The position numbers and the translations under genes are program-made. The notes beneath the pieces are model-generated. The model saw only the letters and a list, made by a program, of their open reading frames with translations. It was not told the DNA's origin and made no database searches. Shown here piece by piece: positions 26,018 through 62,089 of a stretch of 64,000 nt of DNA. Origin of the DNA: Octopus sinensis (lineage: Eukaryota); NCBI RefSeq assembly GCF_006345805.1, contig NC_042997.1, positions 18,166,001 to 18,230,000 on the forward strand, written 5' to 3'. Within the stretch, counting starts at the first letter, position 1. Every line of letters begins with the position of its first letter.

Positions 26018-27752
26018 TAATAATAAAAATAATGATAATAATAATATTGATAACAATAATAATGATAATAATAAATTCGTTTATTGGCCACAAGGGCTCA
26101 CATAAAATTACATTAAAAGACATACAACATAAAAGACAAAAACAGGACGATACAATTGGTCTTACAACATGTAAACAATATAATAATTAAAATTAAACAA
26201 TTTAAAACTTCCAATAGGGGAGGCGCTTTAAGGACTTCGGGGAAAAACACAAAAGCCACGGGTGCCTGAACTACAGGGCAAGAGCCCTTCTTTTGTATAC
26301 AGGTGCAAGCTCAGAATTGGTCCTTTCACATGGCCATTCTTCCAACACTCACCAACCTTTCAACATACTTGCTACAAGGTAACACTTACCTCTCTCCACC
26401 CTCAACTTTCTTTTGAAGTGAAACTTCAAAAAGTTGATGAGGGTTTGGCTAAAGAGGAAAGTGTCTGTCTTTAGCCCTTTCAAACGGGTTCACCGTACTA
26501 CCGCTTTCGCTACAGCCACTAGGCAAATAAAAATTGCCTTCCACTCCCGGCCAAAAGAGGGTAGCAGGGCAGTCCTCACAATGAATTCAGCTGATAATCG
26601 ATCCGTCCAACACGCAATAGCAGGTGTTCGACATAAAGCCACAGGTAAGCAATACTCGGGCACTGGACTAGGGCGTGCAGAATAGTTTCATAGTTCTGAG
26701 CGCACCTCGGGAAGGCCCGGCTAACGGCACTTCCGTGCCTGTAAAGTTTATCCCGAACAGGCAGCGCCCCTCCGTTGCGCTGCCAGGCAAGGTATTTCTG
26801 GAAGTTATCCATAGGCCCAGGCCTGAAAGTTCTCCGAGACAGACCGGTTAGTTGACCTTCATCGACGCCCAGAGTTTCCCTGAGAACGTTGTCGCGCTTT
26901 CCCTCCACAAGCCCCTTACAGAACGCTAGTTTAGAACTACTACCGACCGCATTGCCCGCCTGGCGGAGGGCTGTGAGCGCTTGACGGTACTCGAGGTGCC
27001 AAGCGCCCCTCCTCGGTCTACGCCTAATCTAAGATTGCACCTCAGTCGAAGAGACGAACTGTGGAAAAGCGTGTCTTACAAACGGTGACCACACCTGCTC
27101 ACCGTCAAGGAAATGCTGGAGATGCCGCAACCTCAGCGCATGTCTGCGCATCGGTAACCACGGCATACCCAGCCCTCCATTCAGTGGCTGTTGACAGCAG
27201 ATTGAGCGCTTGACCAGTGGAAAGCGCCCCTTCCACAGAAAGCGGAAGAGTAAGTGCATCAGCTTGGTCAACCAGCAAACAGGCAAGGGACAACAGTCAA
27301 ACGGTAATAGATGACGGATGCGATGTGCGCATTCGCCACCTCCGCTCGACCTTTCAGGGACAGATTTCTCTCGGCCCATTTCTGGGTGAGATTGGCTACC
27401 CTGCCCGTTACCTCATCCCAGTTATTCTCCACCTGGGAGTCCGAACCAAACCAAACTCTGAGCAATTTAACGGGACCGTCTGTCAAGCGTCCAACCACGC
27501 TATTGGACGGCTTGGACTTACCTCTCCAGGTGCCGAGTTGCAATCCCACTGACTTTTTCGCGTTAATTTTAACTCCTGTCACCGCTTCATATTCCTGTAG
27601 TGTTTCGCCAATCAGGTCTATATGCCTGTGGTTCGACACTATGACGGTGACATCATCAGCGTAAGCAGACACACGTCTACCACATCCTAGATCACGCAGG
27701 ACACCCCTAAAAGCCTCCAACTTTCGCAGTAATGGCTCAAGAGTCAGTACAT
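26018..27752 (-). mobile_element. 5'-truncated Tx1/L1-group LINE (RT C-terminus, CCHC finger, AAT-repeat tail)
   Basis: SAYADDVTV (RT), WAERNLSLKGRAEVAN, PLNGGLGMP, CAQNYETILHALVQCP; GC-rich against background; AATAAA and (TAT)n at 3' end; frameshifts. Confidence 0.9.
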
Positions 27753-27764
27753 ATGTTTTTTACC

Positions 27765-52445: not shown

Positions 52446-52993
52446 TAAAAGGCATCGGAGAGGTAATGCATACCCTGCGCGGCAGATAAATTTTTTTCAC
52501 GAATTATAGTGTGGTTTATAATGCGTGGCTTACCCATGCTTTCTAATTTAACTGAATTATTTATTATGTTTTTTAAAATATCACCATTATAGGTATTTAT
52601 ACTCCGCTGAAATTAAGAAATCAACTCATAAGTAAACGAAACCCTCGAATGTGGCATATGTATGTATGTATGTAAGTACACGTGTCTATGCCCATAAGTA
52701 CATCATGGTCTATACATACGCAGGCGAGGGTTGATTCATATGAAAAAGAAAGTGAACAAAATATGAGCACTTGCTTATTAGTAAATTTGTAAGTTCAATT
52801 TCTAATTTTTTCCTTTTTTAAAAGATGATCAAACCAAATGTTCATTCTTTCGAGCCACTCACCCAATGAATATTTCTGCCAAATGTGGTGAAAATCCGTC
52901 CAGTCGTTTTCCAGTAATTTTGCTAACACACAGACAAGCAGACAAAGACGAATGATTACAATAACCTGCTTTCGCTTACGCGCGCAGGGTATT
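52446..52993 (-). mobile_element. Helentron-associated (HINE/DINE-1-like) non-autonomous element
   Basis: Sub-terminal inverted repeats taccctgcgcg (52471) / cgcgcagggta (52981-52991), terminal gcat...atgc hairpin, (CAGA)-like tract. Confidence 0.55.
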
Positions 52994-54108
52994 TAATACT
53001 AATCATAATAAAATAATTTCTATCTTAGTCACACGGGCTCAAAATATAGAATCCAAACCAATGAAGAATAACGAAAATTGGTTTACAATACGTATGATGG
53101 GTGTATTGGACAAAGTTATATAAAAATTTAGGGAGGAAAGCAAAAGTTATATAATAGAGGGATTAAAAAGGTAATAATCTATGAAATAAATATAAAAACA
53201 ATATAAAAAAGAACAAATATATAAATAGTATAAAACCCAATAACTGAAACAAGATATAATTAAAATTTGAAAATCATGTAAAACATTTATGGTTAACCGC
53301 CCACCCTTCTGTAGGAGCCCTTTAACTGAGTTAGACCAGAACACTCCATAATCTGCCCATCACATTTGATGTACCCAAAGTATCTGCTAATATTAAGAAT
53401 ATCGTGACCTTTTAGGGTTTTGCCTTTATTTATTCATAAATCCGTGGTGAGCAATTTACAGGCACTTTGTCATTTGCATGTCCAAGGGAAACTTTTGAAA
53501 TTATTTTTAATGTTTTTATATGCATGTCTACTGTGTGTTGGTTTCTCTGACGCAATACTGTGAAAAAGGTACCTCGTTACATCGCTTTTTCTTGAGGTTA
53601 ATTTTTCTTATTTCACTTTCTTTTTACCACCAACAATTTTTAATAATGCTTCCTCTTTATTCTCCTTCAGCTCATAACAGGTCAACGGTGTATTATTGTT
53701 AGTTGCTATGGTCATAAGACTGGATGTTTGCCCACTTGTTTCTTAAACCGAGTACGCCCTCCAGAATTTTTAGAGTTGAGACTGATGGTACTTCAGAAGC
53801 CAAAACTCGCTGGTTTGCTTACTTCAGCTGCTCCTGATATTTTCTCCTTGCCTCCTCATTTTTAACCGTTTTAGTTATTCATAGCAAAAGATACTCGAAT
53901 GGATTTTATTATCACACGTATAACAACTATGTCTTTTGCTCTCTGTACCATCACTCTCATGCCTTCTGTCTCGGTGTCCTGAACCAGTTACAACACTATT
54001 ATGACCTTTTCCTTTAGCTCATACTTTAACCCACCTCTTCAACTTGCTCCACGTACAACCATTATTTATCTATGTATGTATCTCAATTTTTCTCTCTCCT
54101 TCTCTCGC

Positions 54109-54137
<29 letters not shown>

Positions 54138-54139
<2 letters not shown>

Positions 54140-54686
54140 AGGGCTTAGTAAAATAAATTACTTTGCCACATACTGAACTCATTAGAAATAGCAGCTAAAG
54201 AAATTTCTTCAGCTATTTCTAATACTTAAAGAAGATCTCTCTCAGATAGTGTTTGCCTAAACCAACTCACAAAAGTATGGGGGAAAAAACATTAAAAATC
54301 AAGTGCAAAGGTTATTTGAGAACGTACGTTTCTAGATTAGTCAATTCGACATTCTTTCTTCAGCTCAGAATTCCTTGAATCGGATTTGGGAACACTGAAA
54401 GTCGGGAGCATACCCTTTCGGCTTCTAATCACCTCTAGAATTCTGCTCGAACTAAAAGTGCTATCAAATTCGAATTTGAATTCGCCTATAATGGTCCCTT
54501 TACATACTGAATACTTGGTGAAATTGATTAATAATTAATTAATTTTACCCTCAATTGTTGAAATTATAATTCATCTCTCTCTGCTAAATGCTGCGGTTTT
54601 CACCGTTAATACATGGTGTTTCTCAAGTTTAACCCACGCTGGTGGAAAGGGGAGAGCAGAAATTCTTCGCTTGCATATTCGAATTT
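54138..54686. mobile_element. Diverged homologous monomer (type B) of the hammerhead array, with one half inverted
   Basis: 54138-54239 is an imperfect reverse complement of the array terminus; 54480-54686 matches the monomer middle in sense orientation; halves meet at palindrome caaattcgaatttg (54465-54478). Confidence 0.75.
54311..54373 (-). ncRNA. Antisense minimal type I hammerhead ribozyme
   Basis: Minus strand: gaattctgag-CTGAAGA-aagaatgtcgaattgactaatcta-GAAAC-gtac-GTT-ctcaaataac; stem I tgag/ctca. Confidence 0.7.
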
Positions 54687-55093
54687 GAGATCTCCCTTTT
54701 TAGTAGGAGAAATAGCTATAACCCTTTGACTGCTATTTCTAAATTCGGTATGTGGTAAGGCAACTCGTTGCTAAACCCTTATTGCTTAGTATTACTTAAA
54801 TTTTCCTCAAATGAGGCTTTTACATGCCGAAGACTACTTGGTGTAATTGATAATTTTTCCAAATTAATTAATTTCACCCTTCATTATTACGGATAACCAT
54901 ATTTTATCTCAGTAGATGACCACAGCATCTTGTTTTGGCTACACGCGGGTGGGAAGGGGCTGTTGACACAATCGTTTCATTCACAAATTGAATTCGGTGT
55001 GATACCAGTTGCGGATTCTAGCTCGCTCTGATACTGAGTTGAGTTGGTGCCTTCTGGTATCTCAAAATTCATATATAATCATTTATGATTATA

Positions 55094-55211
55094 GTATTCT
55101 ACGCTGAGAGAAAAGAAGTTTCGGTAAGATAGAATTATTTAATATTTAATATTTAATTCTTATGCTTTCCTTAAAACTTGATTTCGAAACGTACGTACGT
55201 CCGTGGATAAC
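55094..55211 (+). ncRNA. Type I hammerhead, copy 1 (core CTGA-GA, duplicated gtac)
   Basis: tctacg-CTGAGA...GAAAC-gtacgtac-GTC-cgtgga; cleavage predicted after 55201. Confidence 0.6.
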
Positions 55212-55694
55212 TAAAAAATGTATGATAGATTGCAGTCAATTCATTCTCTCTTACCTGTTTGTGTCTGCCTTCCAAATGCTGTTTTTACTGAGATCTCCCT
55301 TTTTAGTAGGAGAAATAGCTATAACCCTTTGACTGCTATTTCTAAATTCGGTATGTGGTAAGGCAACTCGTTGCTAAACCTTATTGCTTAGTATTACTTA
55401 AATTTTCCTCAAATGAGGCTTTTACATGCCGAAGACTACTTGGTGTAATTGATAATTTTTCCAAATTAATTAATTTCACCCTTCATTATTACGGATAACC
55501 ATATTTTATCACAGTAGATGACCACAGCATCTTGTTTTGGCTACACGCGGGTGGGAAGGGGCTGTTGACACAATCGTTTCATTCACAAATTGAATTCGGT
55601 GATACCAGTTGCGGATTCTAGCTCGCTCTGATACTGAGTTGAGTTGGTGCCTTCTGGTATCTCAAAATTCAATATATAATCATTTATGATTATA

Positions 55695-55808
55695 GTATTC
55701 TACGCTGAAGAGAAAAGAAGTTTCGGTAAGATAGAATTATTTAATATTAATATTTAATTCTTATGCTTTCCTTAAAACTTGATTTCGAAACGTACGTCCG
55801 TGGATAAC
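55695..55808 (+). ncRNA. Minimal type I hammerhead, copy 2
   Basis: CTGAAGA 55705, GAAAC 55787, gtac, GTC 55796-55798; stem I tctacg/cgtgga; stem II gaaa/tttc, aagttt/aaactt, gaatta/taattc. Confidence 0.85.
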
Positions 55809-56292
55809 TAAAAAATGTATGATAGATTGCAGTCAATTCATTCTCTCTTACCTGTTTGTGTCTGCCTTCCAAATGCTGTTTTTACTGAGATCTCCCTTTT
55901 TAGTAGGAGAATAGCTATAACCCTTTGACTGCTATTTCTAAATTCGGTATGTGGTAAGGCAACTCGTTGCTAAACCCTTATTGCTTAGTATTACTTAAAT
56001 TTTCCTCAAATGAGGCTTTTACATGCCGAAGACTACTTGGTGTAATTGATAATTTTTCCAAATTAATTAATTTCACCCTTCATTATTACGGATAACCATA
56101 TTTTATCTCAGTAGATGACCACAGCATCTTGTTTTGGCTACACGCGGGTGGGAAGGGGCTGTTGACACAATCGTTTCATTCACAAATTGAATTCGGTGTG
56201 ATACCAGTTGCGGATTCTAGCTCGCTCTGATACTGAGTTGAGTGGTGCCTTCTGGTATCTCAAAATTCAATATATAATCATTTATGATTATA

Positions 56293-56407
56293 GTATTCTA
56301 CGCTGAAGAGAAAAGAAGTTTCGGTAAGATAGAATTATTTAATATTTAATATTTAATTCTTATGCTTTCCTTAAAACTTGATTTCGAAACGTACGTCCGT
56401 GGATAAC
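56293..56407 (+). ncRNA. Minimal type I hammerhead, copy 3
   Basis: CTGAAGA 56303; GTC 56395-56397. Confidence 0.85.
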
Positions 56408-56891
56408 TAAAAAAATGTATGATAGATTGCAGTCAATCATTCTCTCTTACCTGTTTGTGTCTGCCTTCCAAATGCTGTTTTTACTGAGATCTCCCTTTTT
56501 AGTAGGAGAAATAGCTATAACCCTTTGACTGCTATTTCTAAATTCGGTATGTGGTAAGGCAACTCGTTGCTAAACCCTTATTGCTTAGTATTACTTAAAT
56601 TTTCCTCAAATGAGGCTTTTACATGCCGAAGACTACTTGGTGTAATTGATAATTTTTCCAAATTAATTAATTTCACCCTTCATTATTACGGATAACCATA
56701 TTTTATCTCAGTAGATGACCACAGCATCTTGTTTTGGCTACACGCGGGTGGGAAGGGGCTGTTGACACAATCGTTTCATTCACAAATTGAATTCGGTGAT
56801 ACCAGTTGCGGATTCTAGCTCGCTCTGATACTGAGTTGAGTTGGTGCCTTCTGGTATCTCAAAATTCAATATATAATCATTTATGATTATA

Positions 56892-57006
56892 GTATTCTAC
56901 GCTGAAGAGAAAAGAAGTTTCGGTAAGATAGAATTATTTAATATTTAATATTTAATTCTTATGCTTTCCTTAAAACTTGATTTCGAAACGTACGTCCGTG
57001 GATAAC
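56892..57006 (+). ncRNA. Minimal type I hammerhead, copy 4
   Basis: CTGAAGA 56902; GTC 56994-56996. Confidence 0.85.
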
Positions 57007-57490
57007 TAAAAAAATGTATGATAGATTGCAGTCAATTCATTCTCTCTTACCTGTTTGTGTCTGCCTTCCAAATGCTGTTTTTACTGAGATCTCCTTTTTA
57101 GTAGGAGAAATAGCTATAACCCTTTGACTGCTATTTCTAAATTCGGTATGTGGTAAGGCAACTCGTTGCTAAACCCTTATTGCTTAGTATTACTTAAATT
57201 TTCCTCAAATGAGGCTTTTACATGCCGAAGACTACTTGGTGTAATTGATAATTTTTCCAAATTAATTAATTTCACCCTTCATTATTACGGATAACCATAT
57301 TTTATCTCAGTAGATGACCACAGCATCTTGTTTTGGCTACACGCGGGTGGGAAGGGGCTGTTGACACAATCGTTTCATTCACAAATTGAATTCGGTGATA
57401 CCAGTTGCGGATTCTAGCTCGCTCTGATACTGAGTTGAGTTGGTGCCTTCTGGTATCTCAAAATTCAATATATAATCATTTATGATTATA

Positions 57491-57603
57491 GTATTCTACG
57501 CTGAGAGAAAAGAAGTTTCGGTAAGATAGAATTATTTAATATTTAATATTTAATTCTTATGCTTTCTTAAAACTTGATTTCGAAACGTACGTCCGTGGAT
57601 AAC
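57491..57603 (+). ncRNA. Type I hammerhead, copy 5 (1-nt core deletion)
   Basis: CTGAGA 57501; GTC 57591-57593. Confidence 0.6.
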
Positions 57604-58087
57604 TAAAAAAATGTATGATAGATTGCAGTCAATTCATTCTCTCTTACCTGTTGTGTCTGCCTTCCAAATGCTGTTTTTACTGAGATCTCCCTTTTTAGTA
57701 GGAGAAATAGCTATAACCCTTTGACTGCTATTTCTAAATTCGGTATGTGGTAAGGCAACTCGTTGCTAAACCCTTATTGCTTAGTATTACTTAAATTTTC
57801 CTCAAATGAGGCTTTTACATGCCGAAGACTACTTGGTGTAATTGATAATTTTTCCAAATTAATTAATTTCACCCTTCATTATTACGGATAACCATATTTT
57901 ATCTCAGTAGATGACCACAGCATCTTGTTTTGGCTACACGCGGGTGGGAAGGGGCTGTTGACACAATCGTTTCATTCACAAATTGAATTCGGTGATACCA
58001 GTTGCGGATTCTAGCTCGCTCTGATACTGAGTTGAGTTGGTGCCTTCTGGTATCTCAAAATTCAATATATAATCATTTATGATTATA

Positions 58088-58200
58088 GTATTCTACGCTG
58101 AGAGAAAAGAAGTTTCGGTAAGATAGAATTATTTAATATTTAATATTAATTCTTATGCTTTCCTTAAAACTTGATTTCGAAACGTACGTCCGTGGATAAC
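58088..58200 (+). ncRNA. Type I hammerhead, copy 6 (1-nt core deletion)
   Basis: CTGAGA 58098; GTC 58188-58190. Confidence 0.6.
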
Positions 58201-58684
58201 TAAAAAAATGTATGATAGATTGCAGTCAATTCATTCTCTCTTACCTGTTTGTGTCTGCCTTCCAAATGCTGTTTTTACTGAGATCTCCCTTTTTAGTAGG
58301 AGAAATAGCTATAACCCTTTGACTGCTATTTCTAAATTCGGTATGTGGTAAGGCAACTCGTTGCTAAACCCTTATTGCTTAGTATTACTTAAATTTTCCT
58401 CAAATGAGGCTTTTACATGCCGAAGACTACTTGGTGTAATTGATAATTTTTCCAAATTAATTAATTTCACCCTTCATTATTACGGATAACCATATTTTAT
58501 CTCAGTAGATGACCACAGCATCTTGTTTTGGCTACACGCGGGTGGAAAGGGCTGTTGACACAATCGTTTCATTCACAAATTGAATTCGGTGATACCAGTT
58601 GCGGATTCTAGCTCGCTCTGATACTGAGTTGAGTTGGTGCCTTCTGGTATCTCAAAATTCAATATATAATCATTTATGATTATA

Positions 58685-58798
58685 GTATTCTACGCTGAAG
58701 AGAAAAGAAGTTTCGGTAAGATAGAATTATTTAATATTTAATATTTAATTCTTATGCTTTCTTAAAACTTGATTTCGAAACGTACGTCCGTGGATAAC
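58685..58798 (+). ncRNA. Minimal type I hammerhead, copy 7
   Basis: CTGAAGA 58695; GTC 58786-58788. Confidence 0.85.
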
Positions 58799-59282
58799 TA
58801 AAAAAATGTATGATAGATTGCAGTCAATTCATTCTCTCTTACCTGTTTGTGTCTGCCTTCCAAATGCTGTTTTTACTGAGATCTCCCTTTTTAGTAGGAG
58901 AAATAGCTATAACCTTTGACTGCTATTTCTAAATTCGGTATGTGGTAAGGCAACTCGTTGCTAAACCCTTATTGCTTAGTATTACTTAAATTTTCCTCAA
59001 ATGAGGCTTTTACATGCCGAAGACTACTTGGTGTAATTGATAATTTTTCCAAATTAATTAATTTCACCCTTCATTATTACGGATAACCATATTTTATCTC
59101 AGTAGATGACCACAGCATCTTGTTTTGGCTACACGCGGGTGGGAAGGGGCTGTTGACACAATCGTTTCATTCACAAATTGAATTCGGTGATACCAGTTGC
59201 GGATTCTAGCTCGCTCTGATACTGAGTTGAGTTGGTGCCTTCTGGTATCTCAAAATTCAATATATAATCATTTATGATTATA

Positions 59283-59396
59283 GTATTCTACGCTGAAGAG
59301 AAAAGAAGTTTCGGTAAGATAGAATTATTTAATATTAATATTTAATTCTTATGCTTTCCTTAAAACTTGATTTCGAAACGTACGTCCGTGGATAAC
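59283..59396 (+). ncRNA. Minimal type I hammerhead, copy 8
   Basis: CTGAAGA 59293; GTC 59384-59386. Confidence 0.85.
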
Positions 59397-59879
59397 TAAA
59401 AAATGTATGATAGATTGCAGTCAATTCATTCTCTCTTACCTGTTTGTGTCTGCCTTCCAAATGCTGTTTTTACTGAGATCTCCCTTTTTAGTAGGAGAAA
59501 TAGCTATAACCCTTTGACTGCTATTTCTAAATTCGGTATGTGGTAAGGCAACTCGTTGCTAAACCCTTATTGCTTAGTATTACTTAAATTTTCCTCAAAT
59601 GAGGCTTTTACATGCCGAAGACTACTTGGTGTAATTGATAATTTTTCCAAATTAATTAATTTCACCCTTCATTATTACGGATAACCATATTTTATCTCAG
59701 TAGATGACCACAGCATCTTGTTTTGGCTACACGCGGGTGGGAAGGGGCTGTTGACACAATCGTTTCATTCACAAATTGAATTCGGTGATACCAGTTGCGG
59801 ATTCTAGCTCGCTCTGATACTGAGTTGAGTTGGTGCCTTCTGGTATCTCAAAATTCAATATATATCATTTATGATTATA

Positions 59880-59994
59880 GTATTCTACGCTGAAGAGAAA
59901 AGAAGTTTCGGTAAGATAGAATTATTTAATATTTAATATTTAATTCTTATGCTTTCCTTAAAACTTGATTTCGAAACGTACGTCCGTGGATAAC
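59880..59994 (+). ncRNA. Minimal type I hammerhead, copy 9
   Basis: CTGAAGA 59890; GTC 59982-59984. Confidence 0.85.
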
Positions 59995-62089
59995 TAAAAA
60001 AATGTATGATAGATTGCAGTCAATTCATTCTCTCTTACCTGTTGTGTCTGCCTTCCAAATGCTGTTTTTACTGAGATCTCCCTTTTTAGTAGGAGAAATA
60101 GCTATAACCCTTTGACTGCTATTTCTAAATTCGGTATGTGTAAGGCAACTCGTTGCTAAACCCTTATTGCTTAGTATATATATATATATATATATATACA
60201 GACATATATATATACATATATACATGGGCAAATAAAAAGAAAACAGGAGTCAGTTGGTCGTACACAGTGACTATATTAGATTGATGCTCTGTGAAAGTTT
60301 TAGATGGAAAAATAGGAGTGACGTTTCAATTTTGGAGGATTCCACTGAACAATTGTTGAAACTAATTTGCTTGAGACCAGTTCTTTTAGTATTTCTACAA
60401 CTTTATCCAGGTTACCAAGTGTCACTAGTAAGTGTTAAGTGTATAACGGTGGATGTATTCCATTTCAGTTGAAACACAGTAGAAATAATATTTAAGTTCT
60501 GAAAATAACTTTCTCTAAAATATTGGAAATTGTTGTTATAAGATTACCACCTATCTATTTTGTTTTGTTGTTCAGGTGGTATTTATCGTAATAGTAATGT
60601 CTGCCAAAAATAATATTCAAATAAGAATGTGTCTCAGGTTAGTCTAGGAATTCATTGATGCGAGATAGTACATTGTCACGGTTAAGGTTATTTGAATATG
60701 TTTTCAAACTAACATCCTCAACCCATGTAACATGACATGATTTATCCATTGATACTTGTACTGTTTGTATATATGAGTTGGTTCCTATGACTCTCCATCA
60801 CAACCCCAATCACAGTTTCATATATTAAACAGTTTCTCAGCTATTCATACTTATTGACTTCAAAATTGCTTGCTTAACACTAATCATTTTAGTTGATTGC
60901 AGATAGCTATACCATAACAATTTTTTTTTCTATTTTTATGGTAATCAGTTTCACTTTATTGAAAAATCTGAAAAGTAGACCAACATTATATTGATAAGCT
61001 GTTTTCAGATGAAGTTTTATTGAATGAGTAAGGAACTTAATACAATACAATGCAGTCTCAATAAATCTGCTCTGCAAATACCAAAGAATAAGGAAATAAT
61101 GAGATAGAAAAGATTGAAAAAATAAACAAGAATTTATTAACCAATCATGTCACAAACACAATAATGTTGAATTTCAGTGGAAAGGTTGCCAACTTTATAT
61201 TTTGCCATTTTTAACGTTTTTTCTATTTTTCATTTTATTTACTTTTTGTTAGGGTGGGAATCTTAATACTTTTGCAGTATTTGGGAATTAAGAAAGAAAG
61301 AGAGAGAGAAAGAAAGAAAGAACGAAATAAATAAATAAATAAATAAATAAATAAAACAACAAAGAAAATTATTTGGTTGAAAATTTCATCAAATTTTATT
61401 CCTGTTCTCTGGAAGAATTATTAGACGTAGATAATAATAATAAAAAAAAAGTGGTTGAAATACATTCACAACAAAATCTAATAACTTATCATTCTTTGTA
61501 TATCTAAAAAAAAATAACTTATTTAATTTTTATGCTATTTTGTCTTTCCTTTCGTGTATTTAATTGTATTTCCCTTCTTAGCTGTAAGAAATTAGAGTAT
61601 CCTCAGCCTTTTGATATTTTTTATGCTGAGAAAACATCTTGCATTGCAATTAAAGATTTTGGATAAAACTAACTGAAAACGAAATAAAATAAAAATGTAT
61701 TCCACGTTATGTCCAGTATGGTGAATATTTTGACAGTGTTATATTTATTGTAAATCGCTGAAAAATGGGAAGAATAATGTCATGAGTTATCGTGAATGAT
61801 ATTAAGTAAAAACGAAATCCTTGTGAGGAAAGTTTGCAACATGTTTCAAGAATTGTTTAGCACTTATTTTATATTTACACTGGGACGAAAAATATCACTT
61901 GCAGTTCGTTTTCATAATAAAAATTTCTTTCGTTTAGGCACAAGACAACAGCGTTTGAACTCGTAAGCAAAGTAATAACACCAAAACAGCAATACATTTT
62001 GTACAGTTCTTTAATTTCTCCGGCTGTGACCTTATATTATAATTAGAATTATGACACAGAAATGATAATGTATGCATGGGTTTTCTTTA

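What the first reader, a model, noticed from the sequence alone, without database searches (positions are those of the whole stretch)
54138..54686. A diverged sister monomer, split and half-inverted, is fused to the array head
Seen: 54480-54686 on the plus strand is homologous to the monomer middle (tacatactgaatacttggtgaaattga vs tacatgccgaagactacttggtgtaattga; cacgctggtggaaaggg vs cacgcgggtgggaaggg) and ends in attcgaatttg. The minus strand from about 54476 restarts with attcgaatttg and continues through gcagaattctag (vs gcggattctag), a hammerhead and the gagatct...ccctta terminus into (TA)n. Joined, the halves give a nearly complete ~550-nt type-B monomer colinear with type A. The inversion sits on palindrome caaattcgaatttg, and the B-to-A junction shares tga. 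Inference: one insertion primed from both strands of a (TA)n break, with template switching between two related RNAs. This would imply a multi-member family of co-mobilised ribozyme RNAs.
Basis: partly seen in the sequence, partly recalled or inferred. Interest (0 to 1): 0.8.

Follow-up and report, generated by a model that had tools for sequence, protein, structure and literature searches.

The report
Chimeric two-armed retrozyme insertion
Pieces of two related but separate families of small ribozyme-bearing repeats are joined without a spacer at this one site, likely because a Penelope-type reverse transcriptase jumped from one RNA to the other while inserting them, and the outward-facing two-armed layout seen here is the usual way both families sit in this genome.

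Summary
The locus reads (TA)n, inverted B[210-557], B[8-221], A[494-599] plus nine A units, (TA)n. B is not a decayed sister of A. It is a separate young family with its own un-inverted 557-nt arrays.

The inversion is the family norm. 65 of 80 B and 31 of 60 A insertions are head-to-head, ending on (TA)n at two fixed sites about 100 nt apart (T1, T2). Both arms come from one template variant. This is the published Penelope-like layout of an inverted copy plus tail, here on non-LTR retrozymes.

The direct B-to-A join is the unusual part: none in 189 other sampled insertions. Both outer ends are T1, and the two B arms tile almost exactly one monomer circle. I put one insertion with a template jump at about 50%, two successive insertions with loss of at least 437 nt at about 38%, and an assembly chimera at about 7%. 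No empty allele, junction-spanning read or RNA was obtained.

The parts
54109..54129 (.). left (TA)n target tract
   Evidence: sequence
54130..54475 (-). inverted B arm, B210-557, ending outward at B terminus T1; 99% identical to a natural B monomer
54313..54372 (-). type I hammerhead motif of B: core CUGAAGA at 54363-54357, GAAA with palindromic stem III loop, predicted cut after 54321 (GUU); first pair of stem II is a non-canonical A.A
   Evidence: read from sequence; motif survey; not detected by Rfam; cleavage untested
54464..54479 (.). perfect 16-nt palindrome at the inversion junction: native 8-nt palindrome B210-217 plus 4 nt that fit a fold-back; TTTGA occurs only at B8 and B217
   Evidence: 0 of 61 other asymmetric junctions have a palindrome half of 7 or more
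54475..54688 (+). forward B piece, B8-221, with two substitutions not seen in other sampled B segments
54686..54688 (+). B-to-A junction, 3-nt overlap TGA, non-homologous (B221 aligns to A208, A494 aligns to about B447)
54686..60177 (+). A array: A494-599 plus nine ~599-nt units ending at A terminus T1; all units share two near-private variants (A at 17, G at 514)
56890..57012 (+). type I hammerhead motif of one A unit (repeated in each unit), predicted cut after 56996 (GUC)
   Evidence: fold with stems I and II formed, z -1.5; cleavage untested
60178..60222 (.). right (TA)n target tract

Best explanation
This site holds arms of two separate young non-LTR retrozyme families joined without a spacer, likely made in one Penelope-type insertion in which the reverse transcriptase jumped from an A RNA to a B RNA. 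Shown: the layout; the two families; the family-wide head-to-head rule with two fixed outer ends on (TA)n; shared variants between arms; intact RT plus GIY-YIG ORFs whose elements end on (TA)n in the genome. Inferred: a Penelope-like dimer nicks both strands of a (TA)n tract and each 3' end primes internally on a structured RNA. On the right, copying began at A's T1 site, went round about 9.2 times (likely on a circular monomer), jumped by TGA to B221 and stopped at B8, next to B's T1 site. On the left, copying began at B's T1 site and stopped at B210, where the other copy had entered. That end folded back for 4 nt on the native palindrome and joined through TTTGA.
For: Head-to-head T1/T2 in 65 of 80 B and 31 of 60 A loci; no T2/T2 seen in 60 T2-picked loci. 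Arms of one locus differ by 0.5% against 2.0% between loci. They share rare substitutions in 12 of 58 B and 11 of 37 A loci, against 4 of 3229 and 6 of 1317 mismatched pairs. Same-family discontinuities inside arms occur in 8 of 80 and 3 of 60 loci, so jumps or local deletions are common. The B arms tile one circle with a 7-nt gap and 12-nt overlap; the chance of that overlap is about 4-12% by simple geometry. Other B arms also stop at B1-12 (7 of 65, 1.4 expected, p 0.0005). All nine A units share two variants; the other letter is found in 167 of 167 and 233 of 237 segments from other loci. There is no (TA)n at the B/A join, whereas the three distinct sites with an A copy and a separate B copy within 400 nt all keep a spacer. 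Both monomers fold well as circles, z -6.1 and -4.9 against 40 shuffles. PMC11167929 shows in vitro that a Penelope protein cuts and extends both strands at AT-rich DNA from two internal starts. PMC11702581 section 7 reports two-RNA insertions for L1.
Against: No other mixed-family insertion in 189 sampled (95% upper bound about 1.6%). T1/T1 is seen in only one other locus (L096). The start at B8 is a family hotspot, so it fits an ordinary B insertion equally well. T1 arms show no stop at T2, which simple collision on a circle would predict (one search list). Elements do land next to older copies on shared (TA)n (L055, L159), and 2 of 80 B loci have lost the T2 end with its (TA)n (L151, L160), so both steps of the rival occur. 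Shared variants between arms or units could also come from gene conversion or later tandem expansion. No sequence link between A/B and the sampled autonomous elements.
Confidence: 0.5

Rival explanations
1. Two successive insertions. An ordinary B head-to-head insertion (T1 left, T2 right) came first. An A array then landed in the (TA)n at B's T2 end, and at least 437 nt of B plus that (TA)n were lost, at insertion or later, by joining at TGA. The part lost is the inverted-repeat partner of the left arm.
For: It restores the T1/T2 rule (96 loci). B8 is a normal inner end (7 of 65 in B1-12). Single-arm A copies are common (28 of 60), and 2 of those 28 lack (TA)n at the 5' side. Neighbouring insertions on a shared (TA)n and loss of the T2 end both occur. 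Loss of one arm of an inverted repeat is a known route to stability (general knowledge, no call).
Against: It needs two uncommon steps, plus a break point within 12 nt of the start of the inverted repeat (4-12% by chance). In the three A/B neighbour sites seen a spacer survives and one partner is old (85-90% identity). Both parts here are equally young (99%).
Confidence: 0.38
2. Assembly chimera: a B locus and an A locus were joined through a chimeric long read.
For: The arrays carry scattered one-base indels that suggest unpolished long-read consensus. Continuity of the two flanks could not be shown.
Against: The join has a 3-nt overlap, like the 1-3 nt overlaps at 45 of 96 head-to-head junctions. 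It lies inside a 213-Mb contig, and no N gap is seen across 52500-61500.
Confidence: 0.07
3. L1-type twin priming on one chimeric RNA, or homologous recombination between an A and a B array.
For: The end of the inverted arm (B557) and the start of the forward piece (B8) are neighbours on the unit, as in twin priming (PMC11702581 passages).
Against: In most other loci the outer end of one arm and the inner end of the other are not neighbours, and outer ends are fixed at T1/T2. There is no poly(A) and no visible target duplication. The B/A join is not at homologous positions, and the search with the B/A junction found it once.
Confidence: 0.05

Closest known systems
Animal non-LTR retrozymes (PMC7229834; bioRxiv 10.64898/2026.07.22.740005)
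   Same: Non-coding, low-GC tandem units, each with a type I hammerhead motif; dispersed monomers to multimers; proposed to depend on Penelope-like elements.
   Different: Units of 557 and 599 nt are above the 150-450 nt of PMC7229834 but within the 51-972 range of the preprint. The head-to-head T1/T2 layout and cross-family joins are not described in the parts I read; the word 'inverted' occurs 0 times in PMC7229834. Expression, cleavage and circles are untested here.
Insertion units of endonuclease-positive Penelope-like elements: inverted 5'-truncated copy plus tail at one end (PMC8557442, PMC3846280, PMC11167929)
   Same: Head-to-head arms, two fixed 3' ends, AT-rich or (TA)n targets, hammerhead upstream of the ends, palindromes at some inverted junctions.
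   Different: No ORF. The tail is about 100 nt rather than 30-40. Arms can be many units long. No pLTR of an autonomous partner was found that matches.
L1 two-RNA and twin-primed insertions (PMC11702581, section 7)
   Same: One insertion holding pieces of two RNAs or three pieces of one RNA, joined by short overlaps.
   Different: Different enzyme class. L1 primes at a poly(A) 3' end with a 12-18 bp duplication; here both ends are fixed internal sites on (TA)n.

Membership tests
non-LTR retrozyme | tandem non-coding units without LTR or ORF | tested here: met
   9 A units in the window; B arrays of 557 nt in L029 and L011-L020; no frame of 130 aa or more in 54100-60200
non-LTR retrozyme | type I hammerhead motif in each unit | tested here: met
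   Core, GAAA, NUH and stem I present. Among the common variants B's core changes only at the free position 7 (A, C, U), and stem I differs between A and B by two double changes that keep pairing. 69 of 576 stem-III hits had no core found upstream. Rfam does not detect the motif. In B the first stem II pair is non-canonical and the isolated motif did not fold as a hammerhead.
non-LTR retrozyme | self-cleavage of the RNA | not testable with these tools
   needs an in vitro assay
non-LTR retrozyme | expressed as linear and circular monomer RNA | tested here: inconclusive
   Only indirect signs: circular folds, shared variants across units, arms that tile one circle. No RNA run was laid.
non-LTR retrozyme | dispersed by retrotransposition | tested here: met
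   141, 416, 821 and 277 exact terminus-plus-(TA)n matches across the genome, with fixed 3' ends and ragged 5' ends
Penelope-like element insertion unit | inverted 5'-truncated copy adjoining the 5' end | tested here: met
   68 of 80 B and 32 of 60 A loci are head-to-head
Penelope-like element insertion unit | tail at one end only (two start sites) | tested here: met
   T1/T2 in 65 and 31 loci; the tail is about 100 nt; the window itself is an exception (T1/T1)
Penelope-like element insertion unit | RT plus GIY-YIG ORF | tested here: not met
   A and B are non-coding. Such ORFs (775-883 aa in the longest copies) lie elsewhere in G000.
Penelope-like element insertion unit | sequence relation to the pLTR of an autonomous element | tested here: inconclusive
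   blastn and a profile of the T1-T2 module over 42 GIY-YIG loci hit only what look like neighbouring A/B-like insertions; 42 loci drawn from 149 matches among 5029 candidates

The most novel reading that the evidence does not exclude
One Penelope-type complex copied two different circular ribozyme RNAs in a single insertion, and two polymerases shared one B circle, each stopping where the other had started. The locus would then be a genomic footprint of rolling-circle reverse transcription on circular retrozyme RNA, and the twin hairpin T1/T2 module would be the element's internal priming signal.
Probability: 0.35. Interest if true: 0.72.

Novelty: new variant of a known kind. Interest (0 to 1): 0.48.

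Why it matters
That Penelope-like elements move animal retrozymes has been argued from co-occurrence and pLTR similarity, and the preprint I read says the mechanism remains open. Here hundreds of young retrozyme insertions carry the Penelope signature directly: outward-facing arms, two fixed ends and (TA)n targets. The arms also trace to one template variant. With intact RT-endonuclease ORFs in the same genome, this gives a small defined RNA for testing internal priming, two-strand priming and copying of circles in vitro. The chimera itself is a one-off. It matters mainly as a possible trace of a jump between RNAs, which would let these families exchange parts.

Tried and rejected
Rfam: no match at gathering score in the window; only three weak unrelated matches in 54100-55400.

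Public runs: 24 listed, no RNA holder listed. Four contig sets (X1, X2, X3, X5) cover the unique left flank, but their contigs stop at or before the (TA)n, and none of the listed pieces crosses the B/A join (longest 44 nt B-only, 42 nt A-only; two runs were read only to about 76-80%). This is a hole and is used neither for nor against.

Empty paralogue: the left flank is single-copy and the right flank starts with an old repeat; the loci were not compared further.

A search with the whole B+A stretch returned ordinary A arrays among the 150 of 263 rows listed.

A 9-bp RNA helix between the two ends of the forward B piece had pairing probability 0.0 in the circular fold; rejected.

Two-RNA origin of L285 and L104: the differences are singletons or a short overlap, not different subfamilies.

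Editing signature among shared private variants: A>G 7 of 18 in A and 3 of 32 in B; not convincing.

5' ends near the predicted ribozyme cut: 11 of 147 (B) and 7 of 92 (A) in a 21-nt window; about twice uniform, not tested further.

Autonomous partner not identified.

Literature: retrozyme + head-to-head gave 0 papers; Penelope + chimeric + template switch + hammerhead gave 1 review, listing only. A search with a taxon name guessed from recall found nothing on these repeats; the taxon is not established. Subscription papers and bioRxiv supplements were out of reach and may bear on novelty.

Full report
Observation. Both pieces align to the A unit well above shuffles, and only in the stated orientations (z 9.9 and 8.3). 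I used unit coordinates from natural monomers: A is window 56592-57190 (599 nt) and B is a unit of the tandem array L029 (557 nt), both cut to end at the terminus next to (TA)n, called T1. The window reads (TA)n, B557 to 210 on the minus strand (54130-54475), B8 to 221 (54475-54688), A494-599 and nine A units (54686-60177), (TA)n. A and B are 71% identical over aligned pairs and 55% over columns.

B is its own family. The inverted arm has 1759 first-look candidates in G000; the 40 scored include copies at 99-100% and un-inverted tandem arrays. A has 1270 candidates. Exact terminus-plus-(TA)n patterns match 141 (B T1), 416 (A T1), 821 (B T2) and 277 (A T2) places, with 0 for reversed controls. 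Older subfamilies at 76-90% identity exist.

The inversion is the norm. I fetched the first 80 listed B-T1 places and the first 60 listed A-T1 places, leaving out the window's own. B: 65 are head-to-head with the other arm ending about 100 nt into the next unit (T2), 1 is T1/T1, 2 have the other end elsewhere and 12 are single arms. A: 31 are T1/T2, 1 was cut by the fetch and 28 are single arms. Among the first 30 B-T2 and 30 A-T2 places, 19 and 26 have a T1 partner, 5 and 2 are single, the rest are cut by the locus edge or a gap, and none is T2/T2. After removing 11 repeats these samples hold 189 insertions. T2 ends also lie on (TA)n (56 of 65 and 30 of 31). In the circular folds, T1 and T2 each lie a short way 3' of a hairpin in both families.

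One template for both arms. Within a locus the arms differ by 0.5% on average, against 2.0% between loci. Rare substitutions are shared by both arms in 12 of 58 B and 11 of 37 A loci, against 4 of 3229 and 6 of 1317 mismatched pairs. Inner ends of the two arms fall within 15 nt of each other in 14 of 65 and 15 of 31 loci, against about 5 and 4 by permutation. Gene conversion could mimic the shared variants.

Known frame. PMC8557442 and PMC3846280 (passages) describe Penelope-like insertions with an adjoining inverted 5'-truncated copy, a 30-40 bp tail at one end and (TA)n bias. PMC11167929 (parts 1-2 of 4) shows cutting and extension of both strands, a predicted dimer and two internal start sites that match the tail. 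PMC7229834 (passages) defines non-LTR retrozymes. bioRxiv 10.64898/2026.07.22.740005 (parts 1-3 of 5; supplements closed) links them to Penelope pLTRs. G000 holds young RT plus GIY-YIG ORFs, 781 aa in the best copies and 98-99% alike, whose elements end on (TA)n. They carry a CX4CX2C motif before the endonuclease, as PMC8557442 describes for the Neptune and Nematis clades. They show no detectable match to A or B, so the partner is inferred, not identified.

Hammerheads. Rfam misses them. By inspection the core is intact. Position 7 is the one that varies among B subfamilies, and stem I differs between A and B by two double changes that keep pairing. The first stem II pair of young B is A.A, so B may cut weakly or only as a dimer (inference). 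Activity is untested.

What is special here. Over 297 locus records, an A copy and a separate B copy lie within 400 nt at three distinct sites, always with a spacer and one older partner; a fourth hit (L215) looks like one old sister element. The window has a direct non-homologous join with a 3-nt overlap, and both outer ends are T1. The inversion junction is a perfect 16-nt palindrome, unlike 0 of 61 other asymmetric junctions. Its last 4 nt match a fold-back of the inverted arm and also the start of the forward piece, because TTTGA occurs at B8 and B217 only. The plus strand thus leaves B twice right after B221. All nine A units share two variants nearly absent elsewhere, as repeated copying of one circle would give, though later expansion of one unit would too.

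Mechanism. I favour one event with a jump from A RNA to B RNA (about 0.5). It explains the missing spacer, the T1/T1 ends and the tiling of one B circle together. Two insertions with a deletion (about 0.38) keep the T1/T2 rule and use steps seen elsewhere in the sample, but need a break close to the start of the inverted repeat. These odds are my judgement; no call separates the two. An assembly chimera (about 0.07) is not excluded, since no read crossing the join was seen (not evidence either way). PMC11702581 (passages and section 7) gives L1 precedents for two-RNA insertions.

Earlier notes of this scan had nothing on this genome or sequence. Notes on other genomes report similar two-armed Penelope insertions; they are unchecked leads.

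Verdict. The feature is real. The elements are new members of a known class with a Penelope-type insertion rule and a longer tail. The A/B fusion is a rare local event whose origin is open.

Noticed in passing
L096 (G000:C1:65618184-65625484): The only other T1/T1 locus: a very short inverted B T1 stub (about 17 nt) facing a 669-nt B arm.
   Followed up: partly
A and B units around T1 and T2 (window 54720-54900; L029): Both termini follow a hairpin and a CCCT motif. A helix enclosing T1 has pairing probability near 1 in both families and differs between them by a pair-keeping change. The A T1 motif resembles a telomerase template (recalled resemblance, untested).
   Followed up: partly
L313:2616-2838, L299:700-1250, L215: Further short head-to-head elements on (TA)n: an older sister of A/B (L313, probably L215) and an unrelated hammerhead family with a palindromic stem III loop (L299).
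   Followed up: no
L322-L328, L330-L332: Young Neptune-type Penelope family with intact ~781-aa ORFs. A minimal hammerhead-like motif with a UUGAUAA-type core lies about 60 nt before the (TA)n end (read from sequence).
   Followed up: partly
L113, L129, L155, L168 junctions: Short tandem re-copies of unit sequence near T1 inserted at junctions, which suggests repeated slippage or re-priming there.
   Followed up: no
L259 and L260 (G000:C1:81166516-81171192): The same head-to-head B-like insertion occurs twice, 1.6 kb apart: a local duplication or an assembly repeat.
   Followed up: no
window 55186-55200: The first full A unit has a 4-nt duplication in the stem III palindrome and a one-base loss in the core; either real damage or assembly error.
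   Followed up: no
window 26576-27759 (minus) and 2481-2915: Broken non-LTR retrotransposon (RVT_1 and zf-RVT matches just under cut-off) and a transposase-like fragment with an HTH match.
   Followed up: no
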